Below the pieces are notes generated by a model. It was not told the origin of the DNA. It ran no database searches and saw only the letters and a program-made list of their open reading frames with translations. From positions 1 to 36,333 of the forward strand of contig NIVC01004745.1 in NCBI GenBank assembly GCA_002269645.1: a stretch of DNA of 36,333 nt, written 5' to 3'. Source of the stretch: Macrostomum lignano. Its lineage: Eukaryota. Each line of letters starts with the position of its first letter. Within the stretch, counting starts at the first letter, position 1. Below, piece after piece: positions 330 through 24,703 of this stretch. Position numbers and translations under genes: made by a program.

Positions 330-1385
330 TGTAGAGTGTTCTACCTCCCGTAAGAAGACATGAAAGTGTTAACGTACTACTCACACATTTTATTCAGTAG
401 TAAGTTGAAGAGCATGAATAAAGGTATGCTTTGAATTATAAGTATATTCTGACTAACCAATAGAAGAGAGAGACCTTGAGCATGCTAATTTTAGAAATCA
501 CCCAATCACGTGCGACCAACAACTGTCAATTCAAACCCCACCTTCAAGTCATCATTTGGTTTGCACTCGGGTTGCACCCGGATGAACCAATCAAAGTCTA
601 CCAGCTACGGTAACCAATCATGCGCTTTTACAGTAGACTAGTTGCGCAACTTTCTACCCTGTCATGCTTGACAGCCACCGAATCGTGACCCTTTGACATT
701 TGCGAAGACAGTGATGTACGACCTCGAGAGAGGTCTGAACGCCTATAAATACAAGTGGTCCGGAACGGACCGCGGAGCACAGAATCTCCAAGAGAGAGAA
801 GCTCCGAAGAGGAAGCTCTAGTGAAGCCTTCCTGAAGAAACTCGCGTCGTGGACGAGTTCTTGCGGTAAGCCTTACTCATTTGCGCCGTTGGTTGAGACG
901 TCTCGCTCAAGTCTATTGAGACTTGAGTTTATTTGAGTCTGCTGAGACTCTTGAGTCTGTTTAGACTCCACTGGTTGCAGTCTCCAGAAGGACTGCCCCT
1001 GATAGGTCTTAGAAGACTATCAGTGGTTTCCGGAGCTATACCTAGAGTGCAAGAGGCACTGCTAGAAGGAGTAGGCTTATATTAAACCGCAGTTCGGCGC
1101 AGGGATCCCATTGTTGATTTGGAAGCTTCCCATTGGTCCGCACTACAGATACCGGCCGGAAACGACTTCAGTGGACAAAAGGAACGCGGACCTGGTTACG
1201 AACATAGACGTCTAAAGAAGTTCGAGGGACAAAGGAAGTCAGAGAACTACAGAACACGGAAGAGCTCTCCGAGACAGGACTCAAGGTAATACATACCTTC
1301 ATTTGATTACTGGGTTGCCTAGCTACAGAGCTAGAAGTGATTGTTCCTTGATTACAGTGGAGGACTGGTAATAAGGAACACATCA
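330..1385 (+). repeat. 5' LTR (1056 bp)
   Basis: Starts TGTAGAGTGTTC, ends AAGGAACACATCA; direct repeat of 9938-10997. Confidence 0.97.
744..749 (+). promoter_or_regulatory. TATA box of LTR promoter, downstream of several CCAAT boxes in U3; ATTAAA candidate polyA signal at 1081-1086
   Basis: GCCTATAAATAC at 741-752. CCAAT motifs near 457, 502, 587 and 614, and CACGTG near 507. Confidence 0.6.
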
Positions 1386-1387
1386 AT

Positions 1388-1405
1388 TGGTGATCTCGCC
1401 CTCTC
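1388..1405 (+). other. Putative primer binding site (TGGTGATCTCG...)
   Basis: TGG, complementary to the tRNA CCA end, starts 2 nt after the 5' LTR. The cognate tRNA was not identified. Confidence 0.65.
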
Positions 1406-2081
1406 GGCACTACTCAAACTTTTGAGCAATAGCCTGGCCAAGCTATTGTAAAGTGACGAAAGAGCGACTTCATTAATTTTGCGCGCACGTGTTAGAGGTA
1501 ACACTTTTCGACACTTTTCGATTTTTGTACGATTTGAAACTCGAGTAAAAGTTTAGGTATACAGGCTTGAGTACCTGTCAATTTTGAGTAACGTTTGAGC
1601 ACGCGTGTTAAATTTTTGTTTTTAACGAGCTCGAGCAAGAGTAAACCTTAAACAAAACCGAAAACAACGTCCGGTACACTGAAAACAAACCGAAAAATAA
1701 TCAATACACACTAAAACAAAACCGAAATTAAAAACACTTGACGAAAGCTAAAACAAACCGAAATTTGATAAAACGTGACAAGGCACGTCACGAAGACAAG
1801 AAAGGCCTTTGAAAAAAGCAAGAAGCAGCTGCACTTCAAGCACTTTAAAGATACACTTTGCGGGACGCCGCATAAGTGCGAAAATCAGCCAGCGAATAAG
1901 AGGTCAGACAAAAGCAGCCAAAAGCCGAATTCCGCTCAAGGTCAGACATAACAAATTGAGGTGTCAAAAGCCCGCAAGACAATCAGTTACAACCGAAGTT
2001 TATTTCGAAAGAAACACCACACTGGAAGATCCATTACAAATCGACCCAGACCTAGAGCTACCGTTCTATCCCATCAACAAC

Positions 2082-3741
2082 ATGGCGCGGCGCAATCAAC
2101 GGTGCACAGAGATATCAAAGAGACAGTTGGCACCTTTTCTATGGAAAAAGACTTTAACACCTTTGTTGATCATTTTGACCTGGTATGTAGGGAATACAAC
2201 CTACAAAATCCAGAAAAAGCGCAACTGTTGCCACCACTCCTCCAAGGCACTGCACGAGAGATTTATGGTAAACTAGACGCGGCAACACAGCAAAACTACC
2301 CAGCATTAATCATTCAACTGCGCGCACATTTCAACCGCTGTGGCACAAACAGATCAGTGCTACTGCACAAGTTGCATAACAGAAGGATGCAGCCAACCGA
2401 ATCCTTCCTGACCTTTGTGGACGACATCCGTCAGATAATTAAGGCACTGCATCAGCCAACACTGCCAGCTGCAGACCAACCACCTCTGGGTGCGGCAGAA
2501 TTAGCCGCTAGAGAGCGACAGCGATTGATGGATCGCGAACAAAATCTGATTCTGCACGTAATAAACAATGCACAGCCGTCACTCCGAGATAGACTTCTAC
2601 GCGAAAACATTGAAACCGAGGAAGACCTTTTACGGTGCGGAATGCAGTGGGAAGCAAGCGCTCCACTAATGACAACCGGCAACACAGAAGTGCAGAAACT
2701 GACACAGCAACTAAACAAATTGATGCAACATCAAACAGCCGTTATCGCCGAACAAAAAAGACGAAATGAACGAGCCCAAGCCAGATGCTATTACTGCGGA
2801 CGAGAAGGACACTACCAAATACATTGTCCTCATCGGTCAACAAGAAATGACATGCAGCGACAGCCATTCAACAGAAGGAAGCCGCAAAAACCATGGCAAC
2901 AACATCAAAATTGGCAGCAGCAAAACACGAAACGCTTCGGAAACAATGGCTACAGACCGCGAAACACCAGATACATGCCCAAGCAACCAACGCAAGCGAT
3001 GCAACGATATGCAAACGCCATCACGTACACACCGGAAAGCGAACAGCAAGAGCAGCAAGTCTTCACGATAGACGACTTAGAAATGGACTTCACTATCAAT
3101 GAAATCGACTGGCTCGATGCGGAGAGCAGCGAAAAGACAAAAAACATCAGCATGGTCGAAATGAAAGAAACTAACATTGACAGCGAAGAAGAAAAGTCAG
3201 AAGTGAGCACAGAAAAAACATTGCAAGCGACATCAGTGAAAGAAAAGAAGAAACAAACAAAGGCAACGACAAAGAACTGGCAACGAAGGATGACAACGAA
3301 AGAAGCAACGACGGAAATACAGAGATGGAAGAAGAACAGCAAGAAGAAAGCAGCGATCACGATTATGAGATGCAGAATGACGCTGATGACAACCGAGCCG
3401 CCGACAAAGAACATGAAGACGGAAGGCACAAAGGAATGGAAGAAAGAAATCTAAGCTCCGACAGCGATCAATGCTACGAGATCCGATATAAACGAAATGG
3501 TGAAGCCTACATTCAAACGGTCGACTACAAGGCCGAAGTGAGGTACCGCAGACAATGGAGTGACACAACTACAACATCGGAAGAAAGCAAGGAAGAAAAT
3601 GATGAAGACGACAAGCAGCGGAACGAATCGGATGCCTTGCGCTCGGAAACGCCAATGGAACAAGAGGAAGAATACGATGCGGACGTAGAAGATAACGAAT
3701 GGCAGCCGCAGCCAATGCCAGCAAAGACAACGGCAACGTTC
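2082..3741 (+). CDS. gag: Gag (capsid-like domain, CCHC zinc knuckle, long acidic C-terminal spacer); frameshifted near 2100 and near 3215
   Basis: Likely start MARRNQ at 2082 shifts into HRDIKETVGTFSMEKDFNTFVDHFDLVC, a retrotransposon gag-like helical region. It has a CYYCGREGHYQIHC knuckle (CX2CX4HX4C), then a D/E-rich segment running into the env signal peptide. Confidence 0.85.
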
Positions 3742-5616
3742 AGAAAATGGCGATTCTGGATATTCTGGATCATCATAATACTACTGACGGCAGTAGTCAC
3801 CAAAGCAACAGCAATGGAGAAACCAATGATATGTCCAACGGATGCGCATATCCAACCGATGATCTACAAGATACCAACCGACATCAAATGCAGCTACTTC
3901 AAGACAAACCAGGCGAAGCCAAAAAGATCACAATCGATCTCTACAAAGCCAACATCAAGAAGCATCGACAACTTGGAATCGTGTGCTTCAGAGACAAGCA
4001 CCTAGTCGAAAAAATATGGCGAGGACAATGGAACAGAATCCGATTCCGACAGCATGAGCTACATGTGTCGCACGCTGACTGCCTACGATGGAACCAGACA
4101 TTGTTCTCCAAAGATGGTGTACTAGAACCTGATGAAAAGGTCGGCAACGCACAACTCTTCCGAACAAAGAATGTGGCAAACGGTCGATATGTCCACTATA
4201 ATGAAAGATGGCCTGACTACACGGCACGCAACAGCTACCTAATCAGGAATGTTCCGTTCTACTACAATCCGTACGAGAAAATGGAATCACTGCAACTGCA
4301 ACTAAGTGAATGCCGATACAGCGAAGGATGGTGCCCAACGCCGATATTGCGAAATGCAGAACTCTACAGCCTACCGCTGAGTCCAACGTATCATCCAGAC
4401 TATCGATGGCAGATAGTGCACAGAGCCGATCCACACTACGAAGAGCCATCAAAGTCACGACAATATTTCTTCGCTTGGAAGGTTGAGACGGAAATCGACT
4501 GTCAACTACAAAAGTATCACACAGTGGAAGGAGGCCTACTGTCAAACACGTTTTTGGCAAAGTCAGGAGACTTGGCACTGACGTTTCAAAAGAAACCAGT
4601 CGAGCAAAAACTGAAATGCAAGGATACAGACAAGACACTATTATCTCGGAACAAGAGATACCAGTCTACGTAAAAGAAGACGACAAACAAACCTTTCTGG
4701 CGATCATCAACGGAACGTATCAACAGCAGGAACAACAGAACAGACGACGACGAGACATCGAACGTCCCAAACTGGTGTCAAACCGCTACTGTCAGCAAAG
4801 ATAACGGCTTTGGATCACAATCTACACAACCAGTTAAACCACTTGCATCGAACACTGGTTCAGCTAACTTGCAAAATGCACGCAATCAACTTAAATTATG
4901 CCAGACAAAACTACTATGTCAACCCTACGATGACTTTTCGTAAAATCACCGGAATGACAAACGTTTTGGCAGTTCCAATATACGAGCATCTGTTGATATA
5001 CAAGTGCACGCCGATACAGCACCTTAACATCTTGCCGTCGAACACGTCAACAACCTGCTACGACAAGCCAAGGATTGAAGCGTTCTACGAAGGAAAACGA
5101 ATTCAAGGATTCTTGGACACGGTACACAACATCATCGTCGGCACCGCAATACCGAGACCTTGCACCACGGCAGCAAACTACTATCAACTGGACAATGCAC
5201 TACACGTCATCAAAACAACTGGAACGACAGCAAACATCACAGAACCGGAAGTAATCGTCGACGAAAACTACGACATGGAGGATTTGAAAATCCGATTCAA
5301 CAGAACAAAGTATAGCCATTCGCCGATATCCAACTTGACGAGATAACACCAGGATGGACGATCAACGACTTCTTGCAAGCGTTCATCACCCAACGCAAGA
5401 TGATTCACCAGCTGTTCACAAGAAAGGACAAAGGAACCGGGACAGGAAGATTTCCCGTCCTTGTTTCAATGGACAGCGCCATCAAATCATTTTGGACAAA
5501 CAGCTTCTGAAAGCTGCTCAATGGAAGAGGAAGTCTCTATCAAGGATTCATCTTCTACGGTGCTTGCATTGTGTGGATTGTCACGGCAATCTTCATCATT
5601 TCGTCAATCGTACGGT
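3742..5616 (+). CDS. env: Envelope glycoprotein, class III (herpesvirus gB-like) fusogen; broken by several single-base frameshifts
   Basis: Signal peptide RKWRFWIFWIIIILLTAVVTKATA (3742-3813). Cys-rich ectodomain across ORFs 3325-4005, 3699-4673, 4616-4804 and 4810-5346, with sequons NQT, NGT, NTS, NIT, NRT. RRRR site at 4742-4753. gB-like VNPTMTFRKITG..LIYKCTPI and CYDKPRI..GFLDTVHNII..PRPC segments. TM GFIFYGACIVWIVTAIFIISSIV at 5544-5612. Confidence 0.8.
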
Positions 5617-7424
5617 GCTTCACTCAGACTTGTCCAAGAGCTAAGAAGACAGTGAATGCCATAATGCAAAGAACGACAACGGAAGGCGACAACAGTTTAG
5701 AACTAACAGAAACTGCACATCGTGAGGTTCAAGGGCAACCGACACTAGCAACGCGGCTATATCCATCGATTCCGACAACACCAACGGCACCAAGAATACA
5801 ACCACCCAATTATCAAGCAGAACAGCAAGACCCAAAATGGCCAGAGAACTACGTATGTACTCTACACGCCGAAATTGGCAAAGCAATGGCTCAAGTGGTA
5901 ATCAACAATCTACCATGTCGAGCGCTACTCGACTCCGGCAGCTCCATCACAGTTATATCAAAACAACTGTGCAACAAGCTACGACTTGCTCTACGGCCAG
6001 CAACAATCGCAGTTGCAGGAGCAGGAGGACATTCGCTAAACATTCTGGGAAAAGCCGACATTGATTTAAGAATCGCTAATAAACATTTGACAGTTCCAAC
6101 GTACGTCATCGACAGACTCCCAAACCAGGACGTTATTGTTGGCATCGACACGTTCAAGCAGCTTCGACTACCATTGACCTTCGACTTCAATAAGCAAACG
6201 TTCAAGATCGACTCGGTAGAACAACCATTGATCAACCAGATCCGAGTACTACCAAAAGTAACATTGCAACAAGATGTCATCATCCAACCGGAGAGCGCCT
6301 GCTGGATAAAGGCAAAGGCAACTAACGCAACGGAGGAAGCAATGATATTCGACCCAAACAGAAGAGTCACGGCTAAACACCAAATTATGATGCCTACGGC
6401 ACTAGTACTGGTTGCAAAAGATAAACAGCTGCCAGTACAAATATTCAACCCGAACACAGAAACGGTTCATCTACGACAAGGAATGTGCATCGGTCATCTC
6501 AACACCCAAGCATCGGTTATGCTGATTGAGCAAGCGACTCCACGACTAACAGAGGAAGAATTTCAAAAGAAGATCAATTTGGATGACAGCCCGATTACGG
6601 AACAGCAAAAGAGGAAAGTTCGACAGCTGTTGTGGAAGTACAACGACGCTTTCTGCCACCATGACTACGACATCGGACGAGCCAAGGACATCAAACAGGA
6701 AATCAAACTTCTGCCGCACACGGAACCAATTCAGTGCAAGCCGTACCCGATAGCCAAGCATCTGCAACAACACTTCGACGAAATTATCGACAAAATGCTA
6801 AAGCACGGCATCATCAGCAAAGCAATTTCAGCCTACTCCTCACCGTGCCTACTGGTACAAAAGAAGGAGACTAACGAAAGACGACTCGTATGTGACTTCA
6901 GACTACTGAACAAGTACATACCGACGGATCAGCAAAGCCTACCGAAGATCTCCGAACTACTAGCAAAGCTCAACACGGCAAAATTGTTCACAGTGTTCGA
7001 CCTACGTCATGGATTTTGGCAAATTGAAATCGAGAAAGAGTCACGACAGTACACGGCTTTCAAAACCTACAATGGACAAGTATACGAGTACAATCGATCG
7101 CCGATGGGACTCAGCAACAGCCCAGCAACGATGAGCCGACTAACAGCATACATGCTTGCAGGATGCACGAACCTGTTGCACTATGTTGACGACATCTTAG
7201 CCTACGGAGAAGACTTCGAACGACTCTATGAAGCGACGGAGAAGGCCCTCGCGCTTATCCAACGACAAGGACTTAAGCTACAACCGACGAAATGCAAATT
7301 CTTCCGAGACAACGTACGTTACCTAGGACACCAAGTGACAGCCAAAGGAATTTCACCGGACCCAGACAACGTGGAGAAAGTGAAAAAGTTTCCTACGCCA
7401 ACTAGCAAAACGAAGGTCCAATAA
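5571..7424 (+). CDS. pol: Env TM/cytoplasmic tail fused in frame to aspartic protease and reverse transcriptase
   Basis: ALLDSGS (DSG at 5931-5939), RRLVCDFRLLN, FDLRHGFWQI, PMGLSNSPATM, YVDD (7182-7193). The ORF ends at an in-frame TAA (7422-7424) inside the RT connection motif KVQ*FLGLAQYFRKF. Confidence 0.95.
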   Translation: MWIVTAIFIISSIVRCFTQTCPRAKKTVNAIMQRTTTEGDNSLELTETAHREVQGQPTLATRLYPSIPTTPTAPRIQPPNYQAEQQDPKWPENYVCTLHAEIGKAMAQVVINNLPCRALLDSGSSITVISKQLCNKLRLALRPATIAVAGAGGHSLNILGKADIDLRIANKHLTVPTYVIDRLPNQDVIVGIDTFKQLRLPLTFDFNKQTFKIDSVEQPLINQIRVLPKVTLQQDVIIQPESACWIKAKATNATEEAMIFDPNRRVTAKHQIMMPTALVLVAKDKQLPVQIFNPNTETVHLRQGMCIGHLNTQASVMLIEQATPRLTEEEFQKKINLDDSPITEQQKRKVRQLLWKYNDAFCHHDYDIGRAKDIKQEIKLLPHTEPIQCKPYPIAKHLQQHFDEIIDKMLKHGIISKAISAYSSPCLLVQKKETNERRLVCDFRLLNKYIPTDQQSLPKISELLAKLNTAKLFTVFDLRHGFWQIEIEKESRQYTAFKTYNGQVYEYNRSPMGLSNSPATMSRLTAYMLAGCTNLLHYVDDILAYGEDFERLYEATEKALALIQRQGLKLQPTKCKFFRDNVRYLGHQVTAKGISPDPDNVEKVKKFPTPTSKTKVQ

Positions 7425-9005
7425 TTTCTTGGACTTGCGCAATACTTCCGAAAGTTCTTACCCAACTTCGCGAAGACAGCAAAGCCACTGTACGACCTGC
7501 TCAAGTTCGACAAATGGAAGCAGGAGAATTGGACACAAAAGCAACAAGAAAGTTTTGACGAAATCAAACGACAGCTGACATCAGACGCACTGCTACAGCA
7601 TCCGGACTTCGACAAACCCTTCATCATCGAGACAGACGCCTCAGGAACGGGACTCGGAGCAGTCCTACTACAGGAAACTGAAGACAAAAAGGAACGACCT
7701 ATAGCATACGTCAGTCGAGCACTTAAACCGAATGAGACAAAATGGTCAGCTACGGAACGAGAACTACTAGGAGTTCTGTTCGCCCTACGACAGTTTCACT
7801 ACTACATCTATGGATCTCCATTACAGACGATAGTACGCACAGATCATGCACCGCTGACCTACGTCGTAACTACAAAAGGACAAACAAACAACCGACTCAT
7901 CAGGATGACACTCAAGATCCAGGACTACAACTACAAACTCGTCTACAAACCAGGAATTACTAACAAGGCCGCGGACGCCCTGTCAAGAGCCTACGAAGTC
8001 AACGCCATTCATCCAATCCCTAACATCAAGGAATTGGTGGATGAGACGGAACACGACAACTTCTACATAGCAGTTAAAAACAACGACAAGGACATCAAGC
8101 TCAGCCCCGTGGAACGAAAATTCCTACGCAAGCAACGACAACACCTAGCAATCAATAAGTCACGGCTCTACTGGATGAGCGACAATAAACCTAAGATCTA
8201 CGTACCATATTCGTTTCGGCAAGCAATTCTCAACGAGCTGCACGACAACCCACTCGCTGGACACCTGTCGGCCGCAAAGACCATCGCGAGAGTGGAACAA
8301 TACTACTTTTGGCCAACTATGTACGGCGACATCAAGCAGTATTGCAACAACTGCCATTCATGTGCTGCATCAAAGACAGGACGACGACAGAAACCGCAGC
8401 TACAGTCCATTCCGAAGTCGACTACAATGGACTGTCTAAGCATCGACATCACCGGACCGCTACCACCGAGCTGTCTCCAGGGCATAGCCTACACCTACAT
8501 CCTAACCGCCTTGGATATCTTCTCGAAGTTTGCTATCGCCATACCGATACCGGACATCACAGCTCAGACGGTGGCAATGAGCTTTTTCAACGACATCATC
8601 TGCAAGTACGGCACGCCGAAGAATCTTACGTCAGACAACGGATCGCAGTTTACGTCTCAACTGTTTCAGCAAGTTGTGAAGATTCTCAACATTACGCAGA
8701 TCTACACATCGACCTACAATCCGAAGGCGAACATGGTTGAACGGTTTCACCGCAACCTGCACGAGATGATTACACACTTCGCGCATCAACAGCCGGAAGA
8801 CTGGATCATCTACCTGCAATCAGTAACAATGGCCTACAACAGCGCTATTCATCGATCAACGGACAATACGCCATTCTTTCTAATGTTTGGGCGAGACTTC
8901 CAGCCGCCAAACCTATTGGCACAGCAACTACTACCATCGCAATATGTGGAAGTCCGACGTCCATTCAAAAGTTCGTCACGCAACTACACCTCGCATGGAA
9001 AGTAG
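7425..9005 (+). CDS. pol: RNase H and integrase (HHCC zinc finger + DDE core), same frame as RT
   Basis: FIIETDASGTGLGAVLLQ, WSATERELLGV and TDHAPL (RNase H). ELHDNPLAGH..CNNCHSC (HHCC), IDITGPLP, SDNGSQF, VERFHRNL (integrase core). Frameshift near 8955. Confidence 0.95.
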   Translation, partial: FLGLAQYFRKFLPNFAKTAKPLYDLLKFDKWKQENWTQKQQESFDEIKRQLTSDALLQHPDFDKPFIIETDASGTGLGAVLLQETEDKKERPIAYVSRALKPNETKWSATERELLGVLFALRQFHYYIYGSPLQTIVRTDHAPLTYVVTTKGQTNNRLIRMTLKIQDYNYKLVYKPGITNKAADALSRAYEVNAIHPIPNIKELVDETEHDNFYIAVKNNDKDIKLSPVERKFLRKQRQHLAINKSRLYWMSDNKPKIYVPYSFRQAILNELHDNPLAGHLSAAKTIARVEQYYFWPTMYGDIKQYCNNCHSCAASKTGRRQKPQLQSIPKSTTMDCLSIDITGPLPPSCLQGIAYTYILTALDIFSKFAIAIPIPDITAQTVAMSFFNDIICKYGTPKNLTSDNGSQFTSQLFQQVVKILNITQIYTSTYNPKANMVERFHRNLHEMITHFAHQQPEDWIIYLQSVTMAYNSAIHRSTDNTPFFLMFGRDFQPPNLLAQQLLPSQYVEVRRPFKSSSRNYTSHGK

Positions 9006-9028
9006 CCAAGCACAACATCGACAATCAG

Positions 9029-9394
9029 GTGGCTCTAACCACCGGCACCGACATGAGATCGACAACTCTGACAGCCGGCGACATCGTCTACCTGCACTAT
9101 CCGCCGCAACAGACGCACAAACACGCACAGAAGTACAAAGGACCATATCGAGTGGTCCAACTAACGTCACCGACAACGGCACGCCTGGCCAATGTGCAAG
9201 ATCCTCATCAGCACCAATTCTACGTGCACATTCATCGACTAAAGAAGATCAACACTGACACGACAGCGTTTTTACCGTCACTAGACAACGCTGATCGCAC
9301 GCGTTCGGCGAACCGCCACATCGCAACAAAACACGAGGAGACACAAACATCAACCGAGAACCAGCAACATGGCTACAATCTGCGACCTCGTTAA
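9029..9394 (+). CDS. pol: Integrase C-terminal GPY/F domain (frameshifted continuation of pol)
   Basis: AGDIVYL..KYKGPYRVVQ motif; ends HGYNLRPR*. Confidence 0.88.
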   Translation: MALTTGTDMRSTTLTAGDIVYLHYPPQQTHKHAQKYKGPYRVVQLTSPTTARLANVQDPHQHQFYVHIHRLKKINTDTTAFLPSLDNADRTRSANRHIATKHEETQTSTENQQHGYNLRPR

Positions 9395-9505
9395 GTTGCG
9401 AAAACAACCCGTGTAGAGACCGGGTCAGAATAGCTCTACAGCTTCGCAAGCTTGTCGTAAGAGGCGACTAATCTGAGCGACTTCAAACTTCAAGCGACAA
9501 CGACA

Positions 9506-9718
9506 ATGGGCAACGCACTGTCCAAACAGGCGCCCCAACTACAGCAACTCTACGAATGCCCAATATGTTTAACTGATGACTTGGCTGTCAAGCCACCAAT
9601 TATTTGTGAAAACAGACATCGCATATGCGGACAATGTTTAAGCGACTCACATTATATTCAGCTCTGGCAGAATTGCCCGATAGGTAGAAGTAGTTTGCGG
9701 CAGTGCGCCTATTGTTAG
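9506..9718 (+). CDS. Small RING-finger (C3HC4-like) protein with predicted N-myristoylation site, accessory ORF of the LTR element
   Basis: MGNALS fits M-G-x-x-x-S, with strong Kozak context ACAATGG. Cys/His pattern CPIC..CENRHRICGQC..CPIG; the last ligand is Gly rather than Cys. Confidence 0.75.
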   Translation: MGNALSKQAPQLQQLYECPICLTDDLAVKPPIICENRHRICGQCLSDSHYIQLWQNCPIGRSSLRQCAYC

Positions 9719-9927
9719 TCTTGGCGCACATGTCAATACTGTAACCAAAAACATTTTATTTGCATGCGTATACTTACCTTTAAATAACTTTTATAACCAA
9801 CGCTCTTAACTACCCATTACTAAATACCTGTAACACTTATGACAAATGATTATTATAAAGACATGCTTGAACTTTTTATGCGTTTCAATCCTCTCTTTAA
9901 AACTCGGGACGAGTTTTTTTGTAAACA

Positions 9928-9937
9928 TGGGAGATTT
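9928..9937 (+). other. Short putative polypurine tract
   Basis: TGGGAGATTT immediately 5' of the 3' LTR; short and weak. Confidence 0.4.
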
Positions 9938-10997
9938 TGTAGAGTGTTCTACCTCCCGTAAGAAGACATGAAAGTGTTAACGTACTACTCACACATTTTA
10001 TTCAGTAGTAAGTTGAAGAGCATGAATAAAGGTATGCTTTGAATTATAAGTATATTCTGACTAACCAATAGAAAGAGAGAGACCTTGAGCATGCTAATTT
10101 TAGAAATCACCCAATCACGTGCGACCAACAACTGTCAATTCAAACCCCACCTTCAAGTCATCATTTGGTTTGCACTCGGGTTGCACCCGGATGAACCAAT
10201 CAAAGTCTACCAGCTACGGTAACCAATCATGCGCTTTTACAGTAGACTAGTTGCGCAACTTTCTACCCTGTCATGCTTGACAGCCACCGAATCGTGACCC
10301 TTTGACATTTGCGAAGACAGTGATGTACGACCTCGAGAGAGGTCTGAACGCCTATAAATACAAGTGGTCCGGAACGGACCCGGAGCCACAGAATCTCCAA
10401 GAGAGAGAAGCTCCGAAGAGGAAGCTCTAGTGAAGCCTTCCTGAAGAAACTCGCGTCGTGGACGAGTTCTTGCGGTAAGCCTTACTCATTTGCGCCCGTT
10501 GGTTGAGACGTCTCGCTCAAGTCTATTGAGACTTGAGTTTATTTGAGTCTGCTGAGACTCTTGAGTCTGTTTAGACTCCACTGGTTGCAGTCTCCAGAAG
10601 GACTGCCCCTGATAGGTCTTAGAAGACTATCAGTGGTTTCCGGAGCTATACCTAGAGTGCAGAGAGGCACTGCTAGAAGGAGTAGGCTTATATTAAACCG
10701 CAGTTCGGCGCAGGGATCCCCATTGTTGATTTGGAAGCTTCCCATTGGTCCGCACTACAGATACCGGCCGGAAACGACTTCAGTGGACAAAAGGAACGCG
10801 GACCTGGTTACGAACATAGACGTCTAAAGAAGTTCGAGGGACAAAGGAAGTCAGAGAACTACAGAACACGGAAGAGCTCTCCGAGACAGGACTCAAGGTA
10901 ACACATACCTTCATTTGATTACTGGGTTGCCTAGCTACAGAGCTAGAAGTGATTGTTCCTTGATTACAGTGGAGGACTGGTAATAAGGAACACATCA
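9938..10997 (+). repeat. 3' LTR (1060 bp)
   Basis: Differs from the 5' LTR, by eye, in one substitution (GTAATACA vs GTAACACA) and about six 1-bp indels, mostly at short homopolymers. Confidence 0.97.
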
Positions 10998-11001
10998 CTA
11001 C

Positions 11002-11517: not shown

Positions 11518-12592
11518 TTATTATGGAACCTATACAGTGAATCTATCAATTACCGCACTGCAAGAATAATTACAAATTCAAATAAATAGCGTTGCACTTA
11601 CTAATTGGTGGCACATTCTGAGACACATTTCCTGCAGGCCTGTCTGAAATGTAAATTGTGAATTTTTTTTGTTTCCGGTTCAATTATGTTTCTCATGGTG
11701 CGATAATCTTTCGAAAACTATTCCTTATACAATTAAAATCATTTTAAAGTGTTCTTCTGTTCAATGCCCTTTTCGATATTTTCTATCTTCGAAATGTCGT
11801 TATCCAGTCCTTTTGAGTTGCCCGAATCTGGAGTTCAGAAGTCTTTTTTTACTTCGATAAAGTACATTAATATAATAGTAATGTTGTTACTCTTGCCGTT
11901 GTCAGTATATTCAGAGTTTGTGCTTACTGTTCTGGTTGACGAGTTCTGGTTCGCTGTCAGGGCTAGGCTGCTTGCTTTCAGTTGGGTTCTGGCTACTACC
12001 GCTGCCTGGCTGATTTAATAAAAACTAAATTGCTATTGAAAACTAGCGATAGTTGAAGTTTGACAACTTACCAGCAGACTTAGTGACTGCACCATTGTCG
12101 AGGACTTGTTCCACTGCAGAGCAAATTGGCGGGTGGAAATTTTCTGCTTATCTGCATCAGAAAGCTACGATTACTCGTAGGCGCAAAACTTTTAGATTGA
12201 AATAAAAAATCTGCAGCATACCAACTTCATTCGACATGACTGCGGCTCAAATCTAACAATCTAAAATGTGGTTTTTGTTTAAATACATTTGAAATGAGAT
12301 GATGTACTCGTCATTGAAAAAAGTTATATCAAGTTACTAGAACCAAAAGCTGTGAAATCCGTCAACCGTAGGTGTGGAAATTTTCTTTCTGCCGCAGTCA
12401 TGACGAGGCGCTTCCAAGGCTGTGTACAGCTGTTCAGTCCGCGGGCACCGGGGCTGCCACACCCAAAAATTTTCTCCCCCAGACCGGGATAATACGAAAA
12501 ATACTGTTATATCCAATGGCAAGTGCCAGGTATTATGATGTGCGTCGAAAATCAGTCGGTAATAAAAATAACTCTCCGGGCAGTATATATGA

Positions 12593-14143
12593 AAAACCTC
12601 ACTGTCTATGGCAGAAACATCGCCTTCAAGAAGGAGGTCAAATACCTCGGTGTGACGCTAACACATGACCTGCGCTGGATGAAACACCTTGAGAACGTCA
12701 TCGGTCGGGCAAAACGCTGCTTTGCCCAGCTGCGCAGAGCCATCGGGCCGACTTGGGGCCTCTCGCCTAGAACGGTCCGTTGGATTTATACCGGCATCAT
12801 CCGGCCCAGTATCACATATGCGAGTCTCATCTGGACTAGCGTGCTGGAGCAGAAAACCGCCCGTCAGCGCCTGCACCAGCTGCAGGGCAGCATTTGTCGC
12901 GCCATCACAGGTGCGTACCCGTCTACCCTCTACGAGGGGCTGAACACTATTCTTAATCTTCCTCCGCTTCACCTATTTATTAGGGTGGAGGCTATGAAGT
13001 CCTCCTCCCGACTTTATCAGAGATAAAACGTTAAATAACGTACCCTCTGGCTTTATGCCAATGAAAACATTAATCCCGCATATGGACTTTGTTCGCCACG
13101 ACCTCAACAACATCCACATGGACCTGGGCAATGTGGATAGTCGACTCCCCGCTCTCAACATCAGGAGGGGCTTCCAGACCGCCATCCCTGGCCGAGACAA
13201 CATTCCGCTGGATGTCGGCGTGAACCGGCGCAGCCAGGGCATTCACTGCTTCACTGACGGCTCGCTGTTCAACGGCCGCGCTGGAGCGGGTATTGCCATT
13301 TTCCACGAGGGTAAGATGCTTTTCCAGGAAAGCCTGCACCTCGGTGAGAACACCTCAGTTTTCCAAGCTGAAATTTGCGCCATTGAGCAGTGTGCCCAGC
13401 AACTGCTTCAGGCGAACATTAATAATTTTGACATTAATTTCTACACTGATAGCCAAGCTGCTATTAAGGCCTTGACCACTGTGAATATCTCCGCTGCTAC
13501 AGTATCTCAATGCCACCGCAGTGTGCAATCTCTCTCAGTCCTTAACAGGATTAGAATTATCTGGACACCCGGTCACAGCAAAATCCTGGGCAACGAGCTC
13601 GCGGACTCTCTCGCCAAGGAGGGCAGCAACCCAGACGGCAACCACCGTCTGATGAGGCTACCCACTCCCAGGTCGCAAGTCACCCGCCATATTAACAGGT
13701 GGCTCCATCAGCAGCACCAGCTTCACTGGAACAGCTGCACCGAGTACAGGCAGAGCCGCTCTGCCATGCCTAACCTGAACAGGAAAGTCTCTGATTATCT
13801 GATTTCGCTTAACAGAACCGACCTCAGGGAGATGTGCATGGTCCTAACCGGCCATGGATTCTTCCAGAGACATATATCGTTGCAAACCGGTTGCCCTCCC
13901 ACCTGTCCTTTCTGTGGCATAGGAGAGGAGACCGCAGAGCATCACGTCACCTTCTGCCCTTACTTCAACAAGGCGCGGCACAAATACCTCGGCCACCCCC
14001 AGCGGATGGACGAGCTGACCACCCCGGACAATATCCGAGACCTTCGCGCCTTCGTCCGGGACTCTGGCCGGATGAGGGTCGCCGATGCCTCCACTGCGAA
14101 CCTGCCGACTACTGGCGGGGACTGGGCGCACCCCCAGGGTTAA
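12593..14143 (+). CDS. LINE ORF2 C-terminal part: RT thumb, RNase H, Cys/His domain (1-nt frameshift near 13022)
   Basis: [26 protein letters not shown]; [39 protein letters not shown] (RNase H); [24 protein letters not shown]. Confidence 0.9.
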
Positions 14144-14238: not shown

Positions 14239-15010
14239 AGTATATATGATTGCTAAACAACTTCAGCTTGTCAAAAGGCTTTTAATGACGACTTACGAAA
14301 TTGACAAGTTGTGGAAGCGATACTCCTCAGAGAAGATGTAGCGGTCTTCGGACTGCGATGTGCAGCTGCTCAATTAAAGTTCAATAATTAGATACCTGCA
14401 GCAACTCTTAAGCTTTGTGCGACCGTAAGCCCAATTAGAATTATAAGTTGCTTGGCTTGGGGCTTTACTAATATTTCACAAGGTTAGCATTGTAGTGTTT
14501 GGATTAACAATGTCAGAGCTACTTGTAGGCAACTATAGTGGCTGGGGTAGGAGTGTGCTGACGCACAGAAGTACTGGAGCTGGCAGAAATGGCCAAAGTA
14601 CTTGCGCATTGCTGGATCGGGGTGGCTGTATGGCAGCAATGTCCTGCGCACTAGACAGGCTCTTGCGTATGACTCAGAGCTATGGTAGAGAAAGACTGCA
14701 AAAGCACAGTAGCAATCTCACTGCGCACCTCAATGCGCAATGTACTCAGAATTATCAGCATTTATTATAAAAATCTGAGTCCTGCAGTACACCGATGCAG
14801 CTTTTTCACATGCACGTACAAAACGAAGTTCCGTTTTACATTGATTTGCAGTCGTTCTCTTTGAGTTCGGGACTGGAAAACGGGGTGAAAAAAAACTGCA
14901 GCACCCTGAAACACAGCTGTCGCTTGCAAGCAACATTTCACTTCTCTTCGTCATCCACAATATGAAGTGAATGGGTATAATGACTGGTATATAGAGACGG
15001 GTGTGGTAAA

Positions 15011-17457
15011 ATGAGGAAAGTGTCAGGTAGATGGAGGAAGGTGTCAGGTAAATGGAGGAATGTGTCAGGTAAATGGAGGAATGTGTCAGGTAGATGTAGG
15101 AATGCGTCAGGTAGATGGAGGAAGGTGTCAGGTAGATGGAGGAATGTGTCAGGTAGATGGAGGAATGTGTCAGGTAGATGGAGGAAGGTGTCAGGTAGAT
15201 GGAGGAAAGTGTCAGGTAGATGGAGGAAGGTGTCAGGTAAATGGAGGAATGTGTCAGGTAAATGGAGGAATGTGTCAGGTAGATGTAGGAATGCGTCAGG
15301 TAGATGGAGGAAAGTGTCAGGTAGATGGAGGAAGGTGTCAGGTAAATGGAGGAATGTGTCAGGTAGATGTAGGAAGGTGTCAGGTAGATGTAGGAATGTG
15401 TCAGGTAGATGTAGGAATGTGTCAGGTAGATGGAGGAAAGTGTCAGGTAGATGGAGGAATGTGTCAGGTAGATGGAGGAATGTGTCAGGTAGATGTAGGA
15501 ATGCGTCAGGTAGATGGAGGAAGGTGTCAGGTAGATGGAGGAATGTGTCAGGTAGAAGGAGGAATGTGTCAGGTAGATGGAGGAATGTGTCAGGTAGATG
15601 GAGGAATGTGTCAGGTAGATGTAGGAATGTGTCAGTTAGATGTAGGAATGTGTCAGGTAGATGTAGGAATGTGTCAGGTAGATGGAGGAATGTGTCAGGT
15701 AGATGGAGGAATGTGTCAGGTAGATGGAAGGTGTCAGGTAGATGGAAGGTGTCAGGTAGATGTAGGAATGTGTCAGGTAAATGGAGGAATGTGTCAGGTA
15801 GATGTAGGAATGCGTCAGGTAGATGGAGGAAGGTGTCAGGTAGATGGAGGAATGTGTCAGGTAGAAGGAGGAATGTGTCAGGTAGATGGAGGAATGTGTC
15901 AGGTAGATGGAGGAATGTGTCAGGTAGATGTAGGAATGTGTCAGTTAGATGTAGGAATGTGTCAGGTAGATGTAGGAATGTGTCAGGTAGATGGAGGAAT
16001 GTGTCAGGTAGATGGAGGAATGTGTCAGGTAGATGGAAGGTGTCAGGTAGATGGAAGGTGTCAGGTAGATGTAGGAAGGTGTCAGGTAGATGGAGGAAAG
16101 TGTCAGGTAGATGGAGGAATGTGTCAGGTAGATGGAGGAATGTGTCAGGTAGATGGAGGAATGTGTCAGGTAGATGGAGGAATGTGTCAGGTAGATGGAG
16201 GAAGGTGTCAGGTAGATGGAGGAATGTGTCAGTTAGATGGAGGAATGTGTCAGGTAGATGGAGGAATGTGTCAGGTAGATGGAGGAATGTGTCAGGTAGA
16301 TGGAGGAATGTGTCAGGTAGATGGAGGAATGTGTCAGTTAGATGGAGGAATGTGTCAGGTAGATGTAGGAATGTGTCAGTTAGATGGAGTAATGTGTCAG
16401 GTAGATGGAGGAAGGTGTCAGGTAGATGGAGGAATGTGTCAGGTAGATGTAGGAATGTGTCAGTTAGATGGAGTAATGTGTCAGGTAGATGGAGGAATGT
16501 GTCAGGTAGATGGAGGAATGTGTCAGGTAGATGGAGGAATGTGTCAGGTAGATGGAGGAAGGTGTCAGGTAGATGGAGGAATGTGTCAGTTAGATGGAGG
16601 AATGTGTCAGGTAGATGGAGGAAAGTGTCAGGTAGATGGAGGAATGTGTCAGGTAGATGGAGGAATGTGTCAGGTAGATGGAGGAATGTGTCAGGTAGAT
16701 GGAGGAATGTGTCAGGTAGATGGAGGAAGGTGTCAGGTAGATGGAGGAATGTGTCAGTTAGATGGAGGAATGTGTCAGGTAGATGGAGGAATGTGTCAGG
16801 TAGATGGAGGAATGTGTCAGGTAGATGGAGGAATGTGTCAGGTAGATGGAGGAATGTGTCAGTTAGATGGAGGAATGTGTCAGGTAGATGTAGGAATGTG
16901 TCAGTTAGATGGAGTAATGTGTCAGGTAGATGGAGGAAGGTGTCAGGTAGATGGAGGAATGTGTCAGTTAGATGGAGTAATGTGTCAGGTAGATGGAGGA
17001 ATGTGTCAGGTAGATGGAGTAATGTGTCAGGTAGATGGAGGAAGGTGTCAGGTAGATGGAGGAATGTGTCAGTTAGATGGAGGAATGTGTCAGGTAGATG
17101 TAGGAATGTGTCAGTTAGATGGAGTAATGTGTCAGGTAGATGGAGGAATGTGTCAGGTAGATGGAGGAATGTGTCAGGTAGATGGAGGAATGTGTCAGGT
17201 AGATGGAGGAAGGTGTCAGGTAGATGGAGGAATGTGTCAGTTAGATGGAGGAATGTGTCAGGTAGATGGAGGAATGTGTCAGGTAGATGGAGGAATGTGT
17301 CAGGTAGATGGAGGAATGTGTCAGGTAGATGGAGTAATGTGTCAGGTAGATGGAGGAATGTGTCAAGTAGATGGAGGAATGTGTCAGGTAGATGTAGGAA
17401 TGTGTCAGGTAGATGTAGGAATGTGTCAGTTAGATGGAGGAATGTGTCAGGTAGATG
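15011..17457. repeat. 21-bp minisatellite/satellite (GTCAGGTAGATGGAGGAATGT), about 117 monomers with variant units
   Basis: Direct reading. Variants include 18-bp units, GTAAATGG, ATGCGTC, GTTAGATGG and GGAGTAAT. Confidence 0.98.
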
Positions 17458-17731
17458 AGGTTTCCAGTGAGGTTTCCAAGAATTTTATATGTTAAACAAT
17501 AGAGTATAGCTTTATGAATAAAACGACACATTTAGAAGACTTGAAAATGAAAAATTCAGTTTTCAGTTTCTCTCAGTTTTTATTATTGCTTTTCTTTTCT
17601 CCGCATGTTGTTTTCGTAGATTTTACAGTTGACGCACAGTTTTTGTGGTCACGTGACCTGGCGGGAATCGCTAAACGCATAAACTGAAATTTGATTGCAA
17701 GTCACAATGTTTGTTCTCACTCAGCATAGAA

Positions 17732-20926: not shown

Positions 20927-20965
20927 TGGCCCTGGGCTCTAGCCAGACATTGCATTTAATACAGT

Positions 20966-23900
20966 ATGACTAAGCTCCACGCTGCCAAAGGAGCGACATT
21001 CTGTCTGCAAATAAATTTACAGCATTGCGTATCTGCGTCAGTAAATCTGATGAAGATTGCTGAGCTGTACAGGCCAGGCCTCATCCTGATCCAGGAACCC
21101 TGGATGCGCAACGGTAAGTTGCCCAACATTCCCTCTGGCTACTCTGATTTTTATGTGTGTGGCCCGGGGAACAGCCGCCCTAGAGCGGCTATCCTCGCTG
21201 CTAGCCATCTCCAGGCTTGGCTGAGGACTGATCTCTCTGATGGAGACCTTTGCGTCATCCAATCTAATCATTTCTCTCCGCGTACGTGTCTTGTTGCCTC
21301 GGTTTATATCCCAGGCGACAGAGACCCTGCTCCGAGAGTTTACTGCGCCTCGCGCAGTACTGCGAGTCCCAGAACGCTGAGCTGTGCTTAGGGGGCGACC
21401 TCAACGCGCACCACAAGCACTGGGGCAGCAAAGATACCAACACTAGAGGAGAGGAGCTTCTGGCCCTCATCTCTAACACAAACCTCATGCTCTGCAACCG
21501 CGGCAGCACTCCTACCTTTAATAATGGCAGATGGACCGAGGTCCTCGACGCCACACTCGTTACCCCAAGACTCTTTGACAGAGTTAAGGAGTGGAGAGTC
21601 TGGTCTGAGGAGCCCCTCCCTGTCTGACCACTGCTTTATCGCCTTTAACATCGCGGACACTAAAACCCAGTCTCCGATCACTTGGAGGCGCAATATCCGC
21701 AACACTGATTGGGCGGCCTACAAGGCTGCCCTTGATCTGCACCTGCAGGAACTCACGGACTTACGTCCGATTGAGACCTGCGAGGATGTGGATCATATGG
21801 CTGAGACGCTGACAGGTTGCATTATTGCAGCCTACGAAGCGGCTTGTCCTGCTCGCGCCTACAAAGGCAAGACCTCGGCGCCGTGGTGGAACCCGGAGCT
21901 GGGGAAACTCAGGCGGAAGGCCAAAAGCCTTCATCGCCGTGCCATGAAGACCGGAAACCCGGAGGACATGGAGCTTTTCCGGCAAGCCTCCCGCAATTTC
22001 AAATCTGAAGTGCGCAAGGCCAAGGAATGTAAGTGGCGCCAATTCTGCAATGAATTGGATCAAGACAGACCTACTTCTAGGCTTGTCAAGGCCCTTACAA
22101 TGGACAAAATGTCCAAATTAGCCATGATCAAAAAAGATGATGGCTCTCTTACTAAAGACCCTGAAGAAGTGCTTCAGCATATGCTTAGCACATTCTTCCG
22201 AGGGTACCTACTGCTAGACCGGAGCCCAACCATTCGATGGATGGAGCCACCCTAGCGGCGGGCATTGTCACTGAAGACCTAATCGCTCGTGCGGTCAGAA
22301 CCTTCAAACCCTTCAAATCTCCTGGACCTGATGGTATCTACCCTGTTCTCCTTCGTGAAGCAGCCAAGATACCCTCGTTCCTGAGACTCACCCGCAATCT
22401 TATGCGGGCCTCTATCCAGCTGGGATACGTTCCCAAATGCTGGACTGAAGCTCGGGTAGTCTTTATTCCCAAACCTGGGAAGGGTGACTACCAAAGCGTC
22501 AAGGCCTTCCGGCCTATTAGCTTAACGTCAGCAATGCTTAAGCTCACTGAGAGGCTTATTCTCTGGCGGCTGCTGTCCTGCGAGCTGACAGCGATGCCCC
22601 TCAGCAATAATCAGCACGCCTTCCGTACCGGGAGGTCGACTGACAGCGCCCTGCATGCGATTGTCGAGAAGATTGAACGGGCGGTACTGGGTGACGGTTA
22701 CGCCCTGGCTCTCTTTCTTGACATTGTTGGCGCCTTCGACAACGTTATCTTTGAAGCGTTTCAGAGGGCCCTTCAAAATCGCAAAGCTCATGCTACCCTC
22801 ATACGGTGGATCATGTACATGATCCCAACCGTACGGTCACTGCCCAACTTCTTGGGCAAACTGCCTCCACCAGAGTCTGTAAGGGTGGACCCCAAGGCGG
22901 AGTCCTCACCCCGACGCTCTGGAACCTGGTCATGGACGCTCTTCTGAGTGACTCCCGACCCGACCCCGTCTTCAAAGTCGGGTATGCTGATGACGTCACG
23001 GCCATTGTGGCAGGACCGTCTCCCAGCACGCTCAGGGATCTGATGCAGAGCTTTATCCGCAAAGCAGAATCCTGGGCCAATGACAATGGTCTGGAACTCT
23101 CTGAGCCCAAAACCGTTGCCATTATGTTTACCAGCAGACTACGCTGGAACATACGTCCTCTGCAGCTCTACGGCAGAGATATTGCCTTCGCGCACCAGAC
23201 CAGATGTCTCGGGGTCACACTTGACCACCGGCTCAACTGGTCCTTCCACGTGAAAGCAAAAGCCAAGCGTGCCTCAGCCATCCTGGCCAGCTCCGACGAG
23301 CACTTGGCACTTCTTGGGGTCTATCCCCAAAGCGGCTTTGGTGGATCTATACTTCCGTAGTTAGACCTGCCATTACGTACGCCTCTGTTGTCTGGGTTAG
23401 CGCTACCCAGGTCAAAAGCCATGCAGACCTGCTCAACACGATCCAAGGCAGAGCGTGTAGGCTCATCTGCAACGCCACCAGGTCCACGCCCTTTGCTGGC
23501 ATGGGGGCCTTCCTTAATCTACCGCCTCTTGACCTCTTCGTCAGGGGTGAGGCGGCTAGAACGACGCGGCGTCTAATTGATGCCGGCGTCAAATTCATTT
23601 ACATGAGAGCACCTGCTAAGCGGAACCTTGTCCCGCATAGCGACCTGTGCCTCAACTTTCTCAACGAGTGTCAGGCCAATCGCGTCTTCACCGATGGCAT
23701 TGCCTCAACGCTCAACCTGAGACAGCGCTACTCCATAGCTATCGACTCGCGCGATAACATCAATGACCAATGGAACCTTGATGAGCTTCATTGCTACACC
23801 GACGGTTCTAAGCAGTCAGCCAACACCGGCTTTGGTGTTGGAATCTTTCTGAACGGGAGGGTCATCGCTACCCACGCTCAATACACTGGGGTCAACTCCA

Positions 23901-24703
23901 GTGTTTTCCAAAATGAAGTTCTGGCCATCAGCTCCTGCACTGCAGAGCTTCTCGCCACTGGCGTTATTGGCAAGAACATCATTTTCCATTCGGACAGCCA
24001 AGCTGCCTTGCACGCCATCAGTGGCTGCAGCACCAACTCTGCTACAGTCCTCGACTGTATCAAACTCCTCAACGTGTTGGGTTCCGCCAACAAAATTACC
24101 CTTAAGTGGGTTCCGGGGCATGTGGGGATCCGAGGAAATGAGTTGGCTGACACCCTTGCAAAAGTCGGTGCCTCCGGCTCCTCTCTCGGCCCCGAACCTC
24201 TTGTCCCGATTCCTGGCTGTGTCATCAACTCGCGCATCAAAGCGTGGATCAGGACTCAGCACCGCTCGACTTGGGCGAACCGCACGAACTGCAGGCAATC
24301 CAGAGGCGCTGTCCCTCAGCCCTCTCACCAGCTCCGGAAGCTCCTCTTGCGCCTCTCGCGCAGAGACATCCGGGCTGCCACCATGACCCTCTCTGGTCAC
24401 GGCTGCTTCTCCAGGCACCAGTACCTGCAGGGCAACGCCACCAACGCCACCTGTAGTTTCTGTAACTCAGGTGACGAAACCGCTGAGCATTTCGTCAGCA
24501 TCTGTCCCGACTTTACGCGAGCCAGACTCACTTACCTCGGGCCACACACATCTATTACTGAAGCGTGCAAACCCGAAAACTTTATTCAGCTCATGCGCTA
24601 CCTTCGGGCCACCCGGAGGGCTGAACTCTCCTTTCCAGAGAGCACCATAGCTGCTGGCGACACTGGGGGACCTCCCTGGGCGGCGCCAACCCTCCGTCCA
24701 TAG
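20966..24703 (+). CDS. LINE ORF2: AP endonuclease, reverse transcriptase, RNase H, C-terminal Cys/His; several frameshifts
   Basis: LQINLQH, LIQEPW, GGDLNAHH, TPTF, SDH (APE); KSPGPDGI, FIPKPGK, RPISLTS, LDIVGAFD, GPQGGVLTP, YADD (RT); YTDGSK..VFQNEV..SDSQAA..WVPGHVGIRGNELAD (RH); CSFC..ETAEHFVSICP. Confidence 0.93.

What the first reader, a model, noticed from the sequence alone, without database searches (positions are those of the whole stretch)
3742..5940. Flavivirus/alphavirus-like polyprotein topology: Gag | signal peptide | Env | TM | PR-RT-IN, with Pol tethered by the Env anchor
Seen: the TM (5544-5612) is followed, with no stop and in one frame, by a roughly 105-aa tail and the protease. 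Upstream, the acidic Gag spacer runs in frame into the signal peptide, which ends in an A-x-A cleavage motif (ATA|MEK). Inference: a single polyprotein crosses the ER membrane twice. Gag stays cytosolic and anchored by the signal, Env is lumenal, and PR-RT-IN returns to the cytosol. Pol would be packaged through its Env anchor instead of a Gag-Pol frameshift, giving about 1:1:1 stoichiometry. This assembly logic is unlike that of canonical retroviruses or Metaviridae.
Basis: partly seen in the sequence, partly recalled or inferred. Interest (0 to 1): 0.85.

Follow-up and report, generated by a model that had tools for sequence, protein, structure and literature searches.

The report
Retroelement polyprotein with envelope before enzymes
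This is a flatworm retrovirus-like element that writes capsid, envelope and enzymes in one reading frame, envelope in the middle; the gene order is already described, but the envelope's inner tail carries budding-signal-like motifs and likely cutting sites that suggest how such a particle is put together.

Summary
Largely confirmed, mostly known. The window holds a young Ty3/gypsy LTR element (330-10997). This copy is broken, but 16 of 54 loci from the same genome carry Gag zinc knuckle to protease in one stop-free frame, in families down to about 30% identity. The polyprotein has only two membrane-grade hydrophobic segments, an internal signal and one anchor, with basic flanks that put Gag and Pol in the cytosol. 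Env has a herpes-gB (class III) fold and is under purifying selection. The gag-env-pol order with gB-type Env is published for nematodes, bryozoans and flatworms (PMC13524379); one listed flatworm entry has this primer-binding site. Splicing is not excluded: only contigs of runs guessed to be RNA were laid.

The parts
330..1385 (+). 5' LTR (TG...CA), preceded by the 4-nt target-site duplication CTAC (326-329)
   Evidence: 1054/1061 identical to the 3' LTR
1388..1399 (+). primer-binding site
   Evidence: its reverse complement equals the 12-nt PBS entry of the flatworm element in supplement 1 of PMC13524379
2082..3010 (+). Gag (capsid-like region and one CCHC zinc knuckle at 2786-2827); no Met-Gly start; one frame break just after the ATG in this copy
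   Evidence: zf-CCHC only E 0.03-0.06; motif read directly
3011..3022 (+). A-N-A-I, candidate protease site between nucleocapsid and spacer
   Evidence: inference from recurrence at domain junctions
3023..3741 (+). acidic, fast-evolving spacer (about 245 aa); one frame break in this copy
   Evidence: 55% identity between subfamilies, dN/dS 0.38
3742..3813 (+). internal signal sequence: basic n-region, hydrophobic core, A-T-A end
   Evidence: KD19 2.19; 4 basic residues on the N side
3814..5543 (+). Env ectodomain, class III / herpes-gB type, with 12 Cys and 5-6 N-glycosylation sequons; four frame breaks and one stop in this copy
   Evidence: PF24664, E 1.4e-6; profile to gB, E 2.7e-18; Foldseek to KSHV gB, E 8.7e-22
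4742..4753 (+). RRRR furin-type site inside Env
   Evidence: motif meaning recalled
5544..5612 (+). single C-terminal membrane anchor (stop-transfer)
   Evidence: KD19 2.43; 4 basic residues on the C side
5652..5663 (+). V-N-A-I, candidate protease site 15 residues after the anchor, same motif as at the RNase H|integrase junction
5757..5813 (+). cluster of late-domain-like motifs LYPSI (5757-5771), PTAP (5781-5792), PPNY (5802-5813) in the Env tail
   Evidence: motif classes recalled
5838..5843 (+). W-P dipeptide just before the protease, recurrent in relatives, role unknown
   Evidence: 12 of 22 tails
5862..6161 (+). aspartic protease (catalytic Asp codon 5931); N-terminus inferred
   Evidence: PF13650, E 6.6e-11
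6858..7337 (+). reverse transcriptase (YVDD at 7182)
   Evidence: PF00078, E 1.3e-28
7605..7928 (+). RNase H; an in-frame stop lies upstream at 7422-7424 in this copy only
   Evidence: (PF17917, E 4.9e-35)
7998..8009 (+). V-N-A-I at the RNase H|integrase junction
8202..9394 (+). integrase (H2C2, rve core, GPY module); one frame break in this copy; stop at 9392-9394
9506..9718 (+). 70-codon accessory ORF, Met-Gly start, RING-like; shortened form of a longer ORF in related subfamilies
   Evidence: RING-type Pfam hits below cut-off
9938..10997 (+). 3' LTR, followed by CTAC (10998-11001)

Best explanation
An Env-bearing Ty3/gypsy element (gB-type errantivirus, gag-env-pol order) makes one polyprotein of about 2440 aa from its genomic RNA. 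Shown from sequence: one frame, domain order, gB fold, two hydrophobic segments. Inferred steps: (1) Gag and spacer are made in the cytosol; the internal signal targets the ribosome to the ER and Env is threaded into the lumen. (2) Signal peptidase cuts after A-T-A, leaving Gag on the membrane by the signal, which stands in for the missing myristoyl or matrix anchor. (3) The single anchor stops transfer, so tail-PR-RT-RH-IN faces the cytosol, at first attached to Env. (4) Env trimers, anchored Gag and Env-attached Pol meet on one membrane; late-domain-like motifs in the Env tail recruit ESCRT for budding. (5) The protease cuts after nucleocapsid, 15 residues after the anchor and inside Pol, freeing core and enzymes. 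Synthesis from this RNA is 1:1:1, but the particle cannot be; most Pol must be left out or degraded, or extra Gag must come by another route.
For: One frame in 16 of 54 loci, including families at about 60% and 30% identity, and Gag-Env-PR in single database proteins, two of them labelled as nematode. Exactly two segments with KD19 above 2 in 5 of 5 long-frame copies; the next peak is 1.51, inside integrase. Basic residues outnumber acidic on the N side of the signal in 12 of 13 proteins and on the C side of the anchor in 14 of 15. Env dN/dS 0.05-0.12. gB fold: model pLDDT 78, Foldseek E 8.7e-22. Late-domain-like motifs in 9 of 22 tails against 1.1-1.7 in shuffles, and 4 of 16 against 0.7-0.9 after removing this genome's and species label's six (P 0.002-0.008); spacers 2 of 13, not significant. 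N-A-I occurs three times in 2480 aa, each at a domain junction (residues 353, 1235, 2017). No local dip in synonymous change at the tail across pairs, so no sign of an overlaid RNA signal.
Against: No protein, topology or particle data. SignalP and DeepTMHMM were not available; hydropathy windows were used. In 19 proteins checked, 9 showed exactly signal plus anchor, 6 only one of the two above threshold, 1 none, 1 two adjacent windows at the anchor, and 2 (P0053, P0033) three segments, which would break the parity if real. 13 of 22 tails, including family L065, have no late-domain-like motif. The N-A-I and hydrophobic-YP patterns were defined after seeing the data, and N-A-I after the anchor is not kept in the 60% and 30% families, which have other hydrophobic-x-x-hydrophobic words there. 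This family has a Met 15 residues before the signal core, so a separate env-pol message would also work. Three of 22 copies share a frame break in the tail and two share one at the signal-Env border.
Confidence: 0.62

Rival explanations
1. The frame is continuous, but sub-genomic messages set the ratios: a spliced or early-ending gag message gives excess Gag, and/or a spliced env-pol message starts at the Met before the signal. Compatible with the two-pass topology, but then Gag need not be signal-anchored.
For: Packing arithmetic demands excess Gag. Met at -15 from the signal core here, and a Met within 60 residues in 9 of 13 proteins. Donor-like GT sites in the LTR at about 866 and 1285. Drosophila errantivirus Env comes from spliced RNA (PMC12992720) and foamy virus Pol too (PMC7828637). 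A slippery heptamer with a -1 stop 9 codons on lies in the spacer of L002 and L008.
Against: No Met within 60 residues in L061, L063, P0040, P0042. My pyrimidine-tract scan found one acceptor-like site in 1386-9936, at 9284. None of the 15 joints shown (of 24) skips Env with GT..AG ends (contigs, RNA status guessed, weak). No precisely env-less in-frame gag-pol copy among the 54 loci. The slippery site is absent from L074.
Confidence: 0.25
2. The topology is right but the tether does not package Pol: the protease cuts itself free at the ER soon after synthesis and Pol enters cores by binding RNA or Gag, as in foamy viruses. The fusion is a by-product of env having landed inside a gag-pol frame, and the motifs in the tail are leftovers of an ancestral Gag end.
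For: Candidate site 15 residues after the anchor. Motifs absent from 13 of 22 tails. Foamy virus packages free Pol through RNA (PMC7828637). Env trimer clustering could activate a dimeric protease early (inference).
Against: Tail dN/dS 0.09-0.38 and motif enrichment outside this genome show that the tail is kept. The order arose in several clades (PMC13524379), which suggests a benefit.
Confidence: 0.25
3. The single frame is an artefact of assembly or of decayed copies, and the element normally has stops or programmed shifts at the junctions.
For: The window copy is broken; 38 of 54 loci lack a continuous knuckle-to-protease frame; a few breaks are shared by 2-3 copies.
Against: Breaks are scattered and mostly private; continuous frames occur in families at 30-60% identity and in other taxa; many of the 38 are partial loci; the apparent shared shift at residue 499 is an alignment-edge effect, since L011, L015, L074 and L075 are stop-free across it.
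Confidence: 0.02

Closest known systems
GAG-ENV-POL HSV/gB-type errantiviruses of Nematoda, Bryozoa and Platyhelminthes (Chary and Hayashi, eLife, PMC13524379; abstract, passages, section 5 part 1 of 2, section 14 and supplement rows seen)
   Same: Ty3/gypsy Pol, gB-type Env, gag-env-pol order, flatworm host label; one Macrostomum entry (16 copies) has the same 12-nt PBS as the window.
   Different: The main text has no hit for fused, polyprotein, frameshift, late domain or single open, and uses topology only for trees and folds; it does not discuss one-frame translation or membrane topology. Figures could not be seen.
Nematode endogenous retroviruses, NERV (Sacco et al. 2022, J Gen Virol, doi 10.1099/jgv.0.001739; only the citation seen; text not held)
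   Same: Env placed before Pol (as cited). Recalled, not checked: a continuous gag-env-pro-pol ORF and extra 3' ORFs. Nematode-labelled single proteins with Env before protease are among the Env relatives.
   Different: Host phylum; RT identity to the nematode-labelled relatives is only about 29%. Whether that paper already drew this topology is unknown.
Atlas virus and other nematode belpaoviruses (PMC9094657; passages seen)
   Same: One stop-free polyprotein holds Gag, Pol and Env (2828 aa), so Env must be entered through an internal signal.
   Different: Order Gag-Pol-Env, class II Env, Bel/Pao; nothing has to return to the cytosol after Env.
Hepatitis C virus core-E1 and flavivirus/alphavirus structural polyproteins (abstract start of PMC5402940 seen in listing; the rest recalled)
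   Same: Capsid protein ends in the signal of the following glycoprotein, stays anchored after signal peptidase cleavage and is freed by a second protease; enzymes follow the glycoproteins in flaviviruses.
   Different: Analogy only, no homology. Env here is class III; the enzymes must be packaged, whereas flavivirus enzymes are not.
Foamy viruses (PMC7828637; passages seen)
   Same: Gag lacks myristoylation; Pol is not made as Gag-Pol; the Env leader has a type II anchor and stays in the particle.
   Different: Pol and Env come from spliced RNAs; the leader is not fused to Gag.

Membership tests
Ty3/gypsy (Metaviridae) LTR element | Paired LTRs with TG...CA ends, PBS and target-site duplication | tested here: met
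Ty3/gypsy (Metaviridae) LTR element | Pol order PR-RT-RH-IN | tested here: met
Ty3/gypsy (Metaviridae) LTR element | RT placed within Ty3/gypsy by phylogeny or Gypsy-database profiles | not tested
   no tree built; only pairwise RT identities; no Bel/Pao Pfam family above E 0.1 in Pol
GAG-ENV-POL HSV/gB errantivirus | Env between gag and pol | tested here: met
GAG-ENV-POL HSV/gB errantivirus | Env of gB / class III fold flanked by signal and anchor | tested here: met
GAG-ENV-POL HSV/gB errantivirus | Same family as the catalogued Macrostomum entry | tested here: inconclusive
   PBS 12 of 12 identical, same Env type and order, species label on a 97% identical protein; the entry's own sequence was not among the supplement rows seen
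NERV (nematode clade) | Monophyletic nematode RT clade (recalled) | tested here: inconclusive
   RT only about 29% identical to nematode-labelled relatives; PMC13524379 says gag-env-pol elements are not monophyletic; works like NERV, membership not claimed
Belpaoviridae single-ORF Gag-Pol-Env | Env after integrase; Pao protease | tested here: not met
Flavivirus/alphavirus polyprotein | Class II glycoproteins and RNA-dependent RNA polymerase | tested here: not met
   class III fold, reverse transcriptase; analogy of topology only
Flavivirus/alphavirus polyprotein | Measured multi-pass ER topology with signal peptidase cleavage | not testable with these tools
   predicted only

The most novel reading that the evidence does not exclude
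Gag-env-pol retroelements assemble by a route not described for any reverse-transcribing virus: the Env signal replaces the matrix anchor of Gag, the Env cytoplasmic tail both carries the ESCRT late domains and delivers Pol, and the element's protease cuts both tethers on maturation, with a still unknown step that removes surplus Pol.
Probability: 0.35. Interest if true: 0.72.

Novelty: new member of a known kind. Interest (0 to 1): 0.42.

Why it matters
The gene order is known and this family is probably catalogued, so the element itself is no surprise. What appears unaddressed in the texts I could search is how such a polyprotein works. If the model holds, it shows one step by which an LTR retrotransposon becomes enveloped: dropping a type I glycoprotein with its signal and anchor into a gag-pol frame gives Gag a membrane anchor and keeps Pol attached, with no splicing or frameshift. 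It also moves budding signals from Gag to the Env tail and poses a sharp stoichiometry problem that can be measured in a laboratory flatworm with dozens of young copies.

Tried and rejected
Single-sequence fold of the ectodomain: pLDDT 31, unusable; redone with a 61-row alignment. RNA evidence: no RNA holder listed on record; four runs laid were contigs, three guessed RNA, so they say nothing on expression, strand or level; no Env-skipping GT..AG joint among 15 of 24 shown is not evidence of absence. Word-index homolog search at near length gave only 2 proteins. Low synonymous divergence at anchor and tail between L002 and L008/L074 looked like an overlaid RNA signal; other pairs show 37-43% there, so it is mosaic recombination. 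The shared 'frameshift' at residue 499 is an alignment-edge effect. Programmed -1 frameshifting: heptamers found in L002/L008 are absent from L074. Precisely env-less gag-pol copies: none among 54 loci. Sacco 2022 not held. A search for the Tf1 precedent (surplus Pol degraded; recalled) found no paper. PMC4604429 and PMC12801592 passages do not mention this Env or ORF. ESM Atlas hits for the accessory ORF were all under 0.9. No earlier scan findings. No complex prediction and no phylogenetic tree were run. Tails of 6 of the 22 proteins were cut at a fixed 110 residues after a hand-placed anchor.
Full report
What is there. Positions 330-10997 are one LTR element: LTRs 330-1385 and 9938-10997, 1054 of 1061 nt identical with 1 substitution and 6 gaps, TG...CA ends, a CTAC duplication on both sides and a primer-binding site at 1388-1399. 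Pfam finds protease, RT, RNase H and integrase in Ty3/gypsy order and, upstream of protease, the viral fusion family PF24664. A protein 97% identical over 44% of the Env-tail query is labelled Macrostomum lignano by its source, so the host is a flatworm by that label.

The observation. The anchor starts at 5544 and runs stop-free to the protease Asp at 5931; the acidic spacer runs in frame into the signal at 3742-3813, ending ATA|MEK. But this copy has seven frame breaks and two stops after its ATG, one stop 11 codons before the anchor. All but one are private among the 22 copies compared. The decisive evidence is from sister copies: 4 of the first 18 have a single frame of 2480-2489 codons, and 16 of 54 loci, partial ones included, have zinc knuckle to protease in one stop-free frame. 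These include families at about 60% (2502-2503 codons) and 30% identity (2458 codons). Against: 3 of 22 copies share a break in the tail, 2 at the signal-Env border and 3 in the spacer; none is family-wide. In-frame slippery heptamers in L002 and L008 are missing from L074.

Env. A profile of 61 aligned relatives hits herpesvirus gB chains (E 2.7e-18); the model (pLDDT 78) matches KSHV gB at E 8.7e-22. dN/dS in the ectodomain is 0.05-0.12 in three pairs, so Env is maintained, not a relic. An HMMER search of 1.84 billion representatives gave 61 relatives. I scanned 27 of them, mostly the long ones, with Pfam: many have Gag features before the Env match and protease after it in one protein, and one (P0054) is a Bel/Pao with Env last. 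Two of ten looked up are labelled Panagrolaimus and Globodera.

Topology. In 5 of 5 long-frame copies only two 19-residue windows exceed KD 2, the signal and the anchor. Basic residues outnumber acidic on the N side of the signal in 12 of 13 proteins and on the C side of the anchor in 14 of 15, as the positive-inside rule (recalled) predicts for cytosolic Gag, lumenal Env and cytosolic Pol. Among 19 proteins, 9 show exactly these two segments, 6 one of them, 1 none, 1 two adjacent windows at the anchor and 2 three segments; the last may be gene-model errors but were not resolved. This is prediction, without SignalP or DeepTMHMM.

Three additions. First, the tail between anchor and protease holds LYPSI, PTAP and PPNY within 19 residues, the three late-domain classes (recalled). 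0 of 20,000 shuffles of the tail gave all three. At least one such motif is in 9 of 22 tails (expected 1.1-1.7), and in 4 of 16 outside this genome and species label (expected 0.7-0.9, P 0.002-0.008); spacers, 2 of 13, are not significant. Thirteen tails have none, relatives are not independent, and one pattern was set after seeing the data. Second, N-A-I occurs three times in 2480 residues: after nucleocapsid, 15 residues after the anchor, and between RNase H and integrase (P 0.0065 for three or more of the wider pattern, post hoc). Beta-branched residues at P2 and P2' are common in retroviral protease sites (PMC3185560, passages). I infer that the protease frees Gag from its signal anchor and Pol from Env; distant families have other hydrophobic words at the tail position. 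Third, stoichiometry: the Ty3 core has 540 capsid copies and about 50,000 nm3 inside (PMC6525542, passages), while 540 PR-RT-IN need about 85,000 nm3 (with a recalled protein volume). Unless the particle is much larger or built differently, 1:1:1 cannot be packaged.

Splicing. Not settled. No holder is on record as RNA. Four runs laid as contigs show no Env-skipping GT..AG joint among 15 of 24 joints shown. A pyrimidine-tract scan found one acceptor-like site, at 9284, no env-less in-frame copy turned up in 54 loci, and synonymous change is not suppressed at the tail. But this family has a Met 15 residues before the signal core, donor-like sites lie in the LTR, and related systems splice (PMC12992720, passages; PMC7828637, passages).

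What is known. PMC13524379 (abstract, passages, section 5 part 1 of 2, section 14, supplement rows; figures not seen) reports gB-type errantiviruses with GAG-ENV-POL order in Nematoda, Bryozoa and Platyhelminthes, in several clades, and lists a Macrostomum element with 16 copies whose PBS entry equals the window's. It credits the flipped order to Sacco et al. 2022, of which I saw only the citation; I recall that it describes a continuous gag-env-pro-pol ORF. A single Gag-Pol-Env polyprotein is known in Atlas virus (PMC9094657, passages). The eLife main text has no hit for fused, polyprotein, frameshift or late domain. Searches listed no paper on the membrane topology or tail motifs of such elements (judged from titles and abstract starts); subscription papers, Sacco 2022 and the eLife figures are outside what I could see, so the topology may be in print.

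Verdict. A real feature and a member of a known kind. One frame: about 0.95. Two-pass topology: about 0.85. Pol brought in through the Env tail, with ESCRT motifs there in use: about 0.35-0.5. 1:1:1 in the particle: about 0.1. It works like a flavivirus or HCV polyprotein in topology only. Interest 0.42.

Noticed in passing
window 9506-9718; L008:1097-1885 and 404-1048 (minus strand); L015: Accessory ORFs between integrase and the 3' LTR. Related subfamilies carry two Cys-rich RING-like ORFs (about 220 and 210 aa), the first starting Met-Gly like a myristoylation signal; the window's subfamily keeps only a 70-codon piece of the first. Pfam RING hits are below cut-off; Atlas look-alikes are giant-virus RING/SAP proteins under 0.9. 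Could be a ubiquitin ligase or matrix-like helper.
   Followed up: partly
L002, L008, L011, L074, L109, L112: Copies are mosaics: synonymous divergence switches between about 2% and 40% in blocks of a few hundred codons, differently in each pair; the gag side is 78% identical where env-pol is 91%. Fits template switching between co-packaged RNAs.
   Followed up: partly
window 5838-5843 and relatives: W-P shortly before the protease in 12 of 22 tails against 2.5-3.3 expected, and 7 of 16 outside this genome; unexplained.
   Followed up: partly
L107, L108, L125: These families have a PPxY word in the spacer just before the internal signal, so late-domain-like motifs may sit on either membrane-proximal cytosolic side.
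   Followed up: no
window 1385 to 4575: A joint from the LTR end into mid-Env is seen in contigs of runs X8 and X16: an internally deleted copy, probably genomic.
   Followed up: no
L061-L067, L070-L073: At least three more gag-env-pol families at 22-30% identity in the same genome, some with three zinc knuckles; L065 lacks a knuckle and tail motifs.
   Followed up: partly
window 12493-14143 and 20960-24703: Two frame-broken non-LTR retrotransposon-like stretches with endonuclease-, RT- and RNase H-like sequence, judged by eye.
   Followed up: no
window 14868-17500 and 27344-28159: Tandem arrays: a 21-nt unit in about 118 copies and a 33-nt unit giving open frames on both strands.
   Followed up: no
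window 31045-33150 (minus): 701-codon ORF that looks like a DNA-transposon transposase by eye.
   Followed up: no
window 24598-25128 (minus): Frame with a caspase-like stretch by eye, abutting the non-LTR element end.
   Followed up: no
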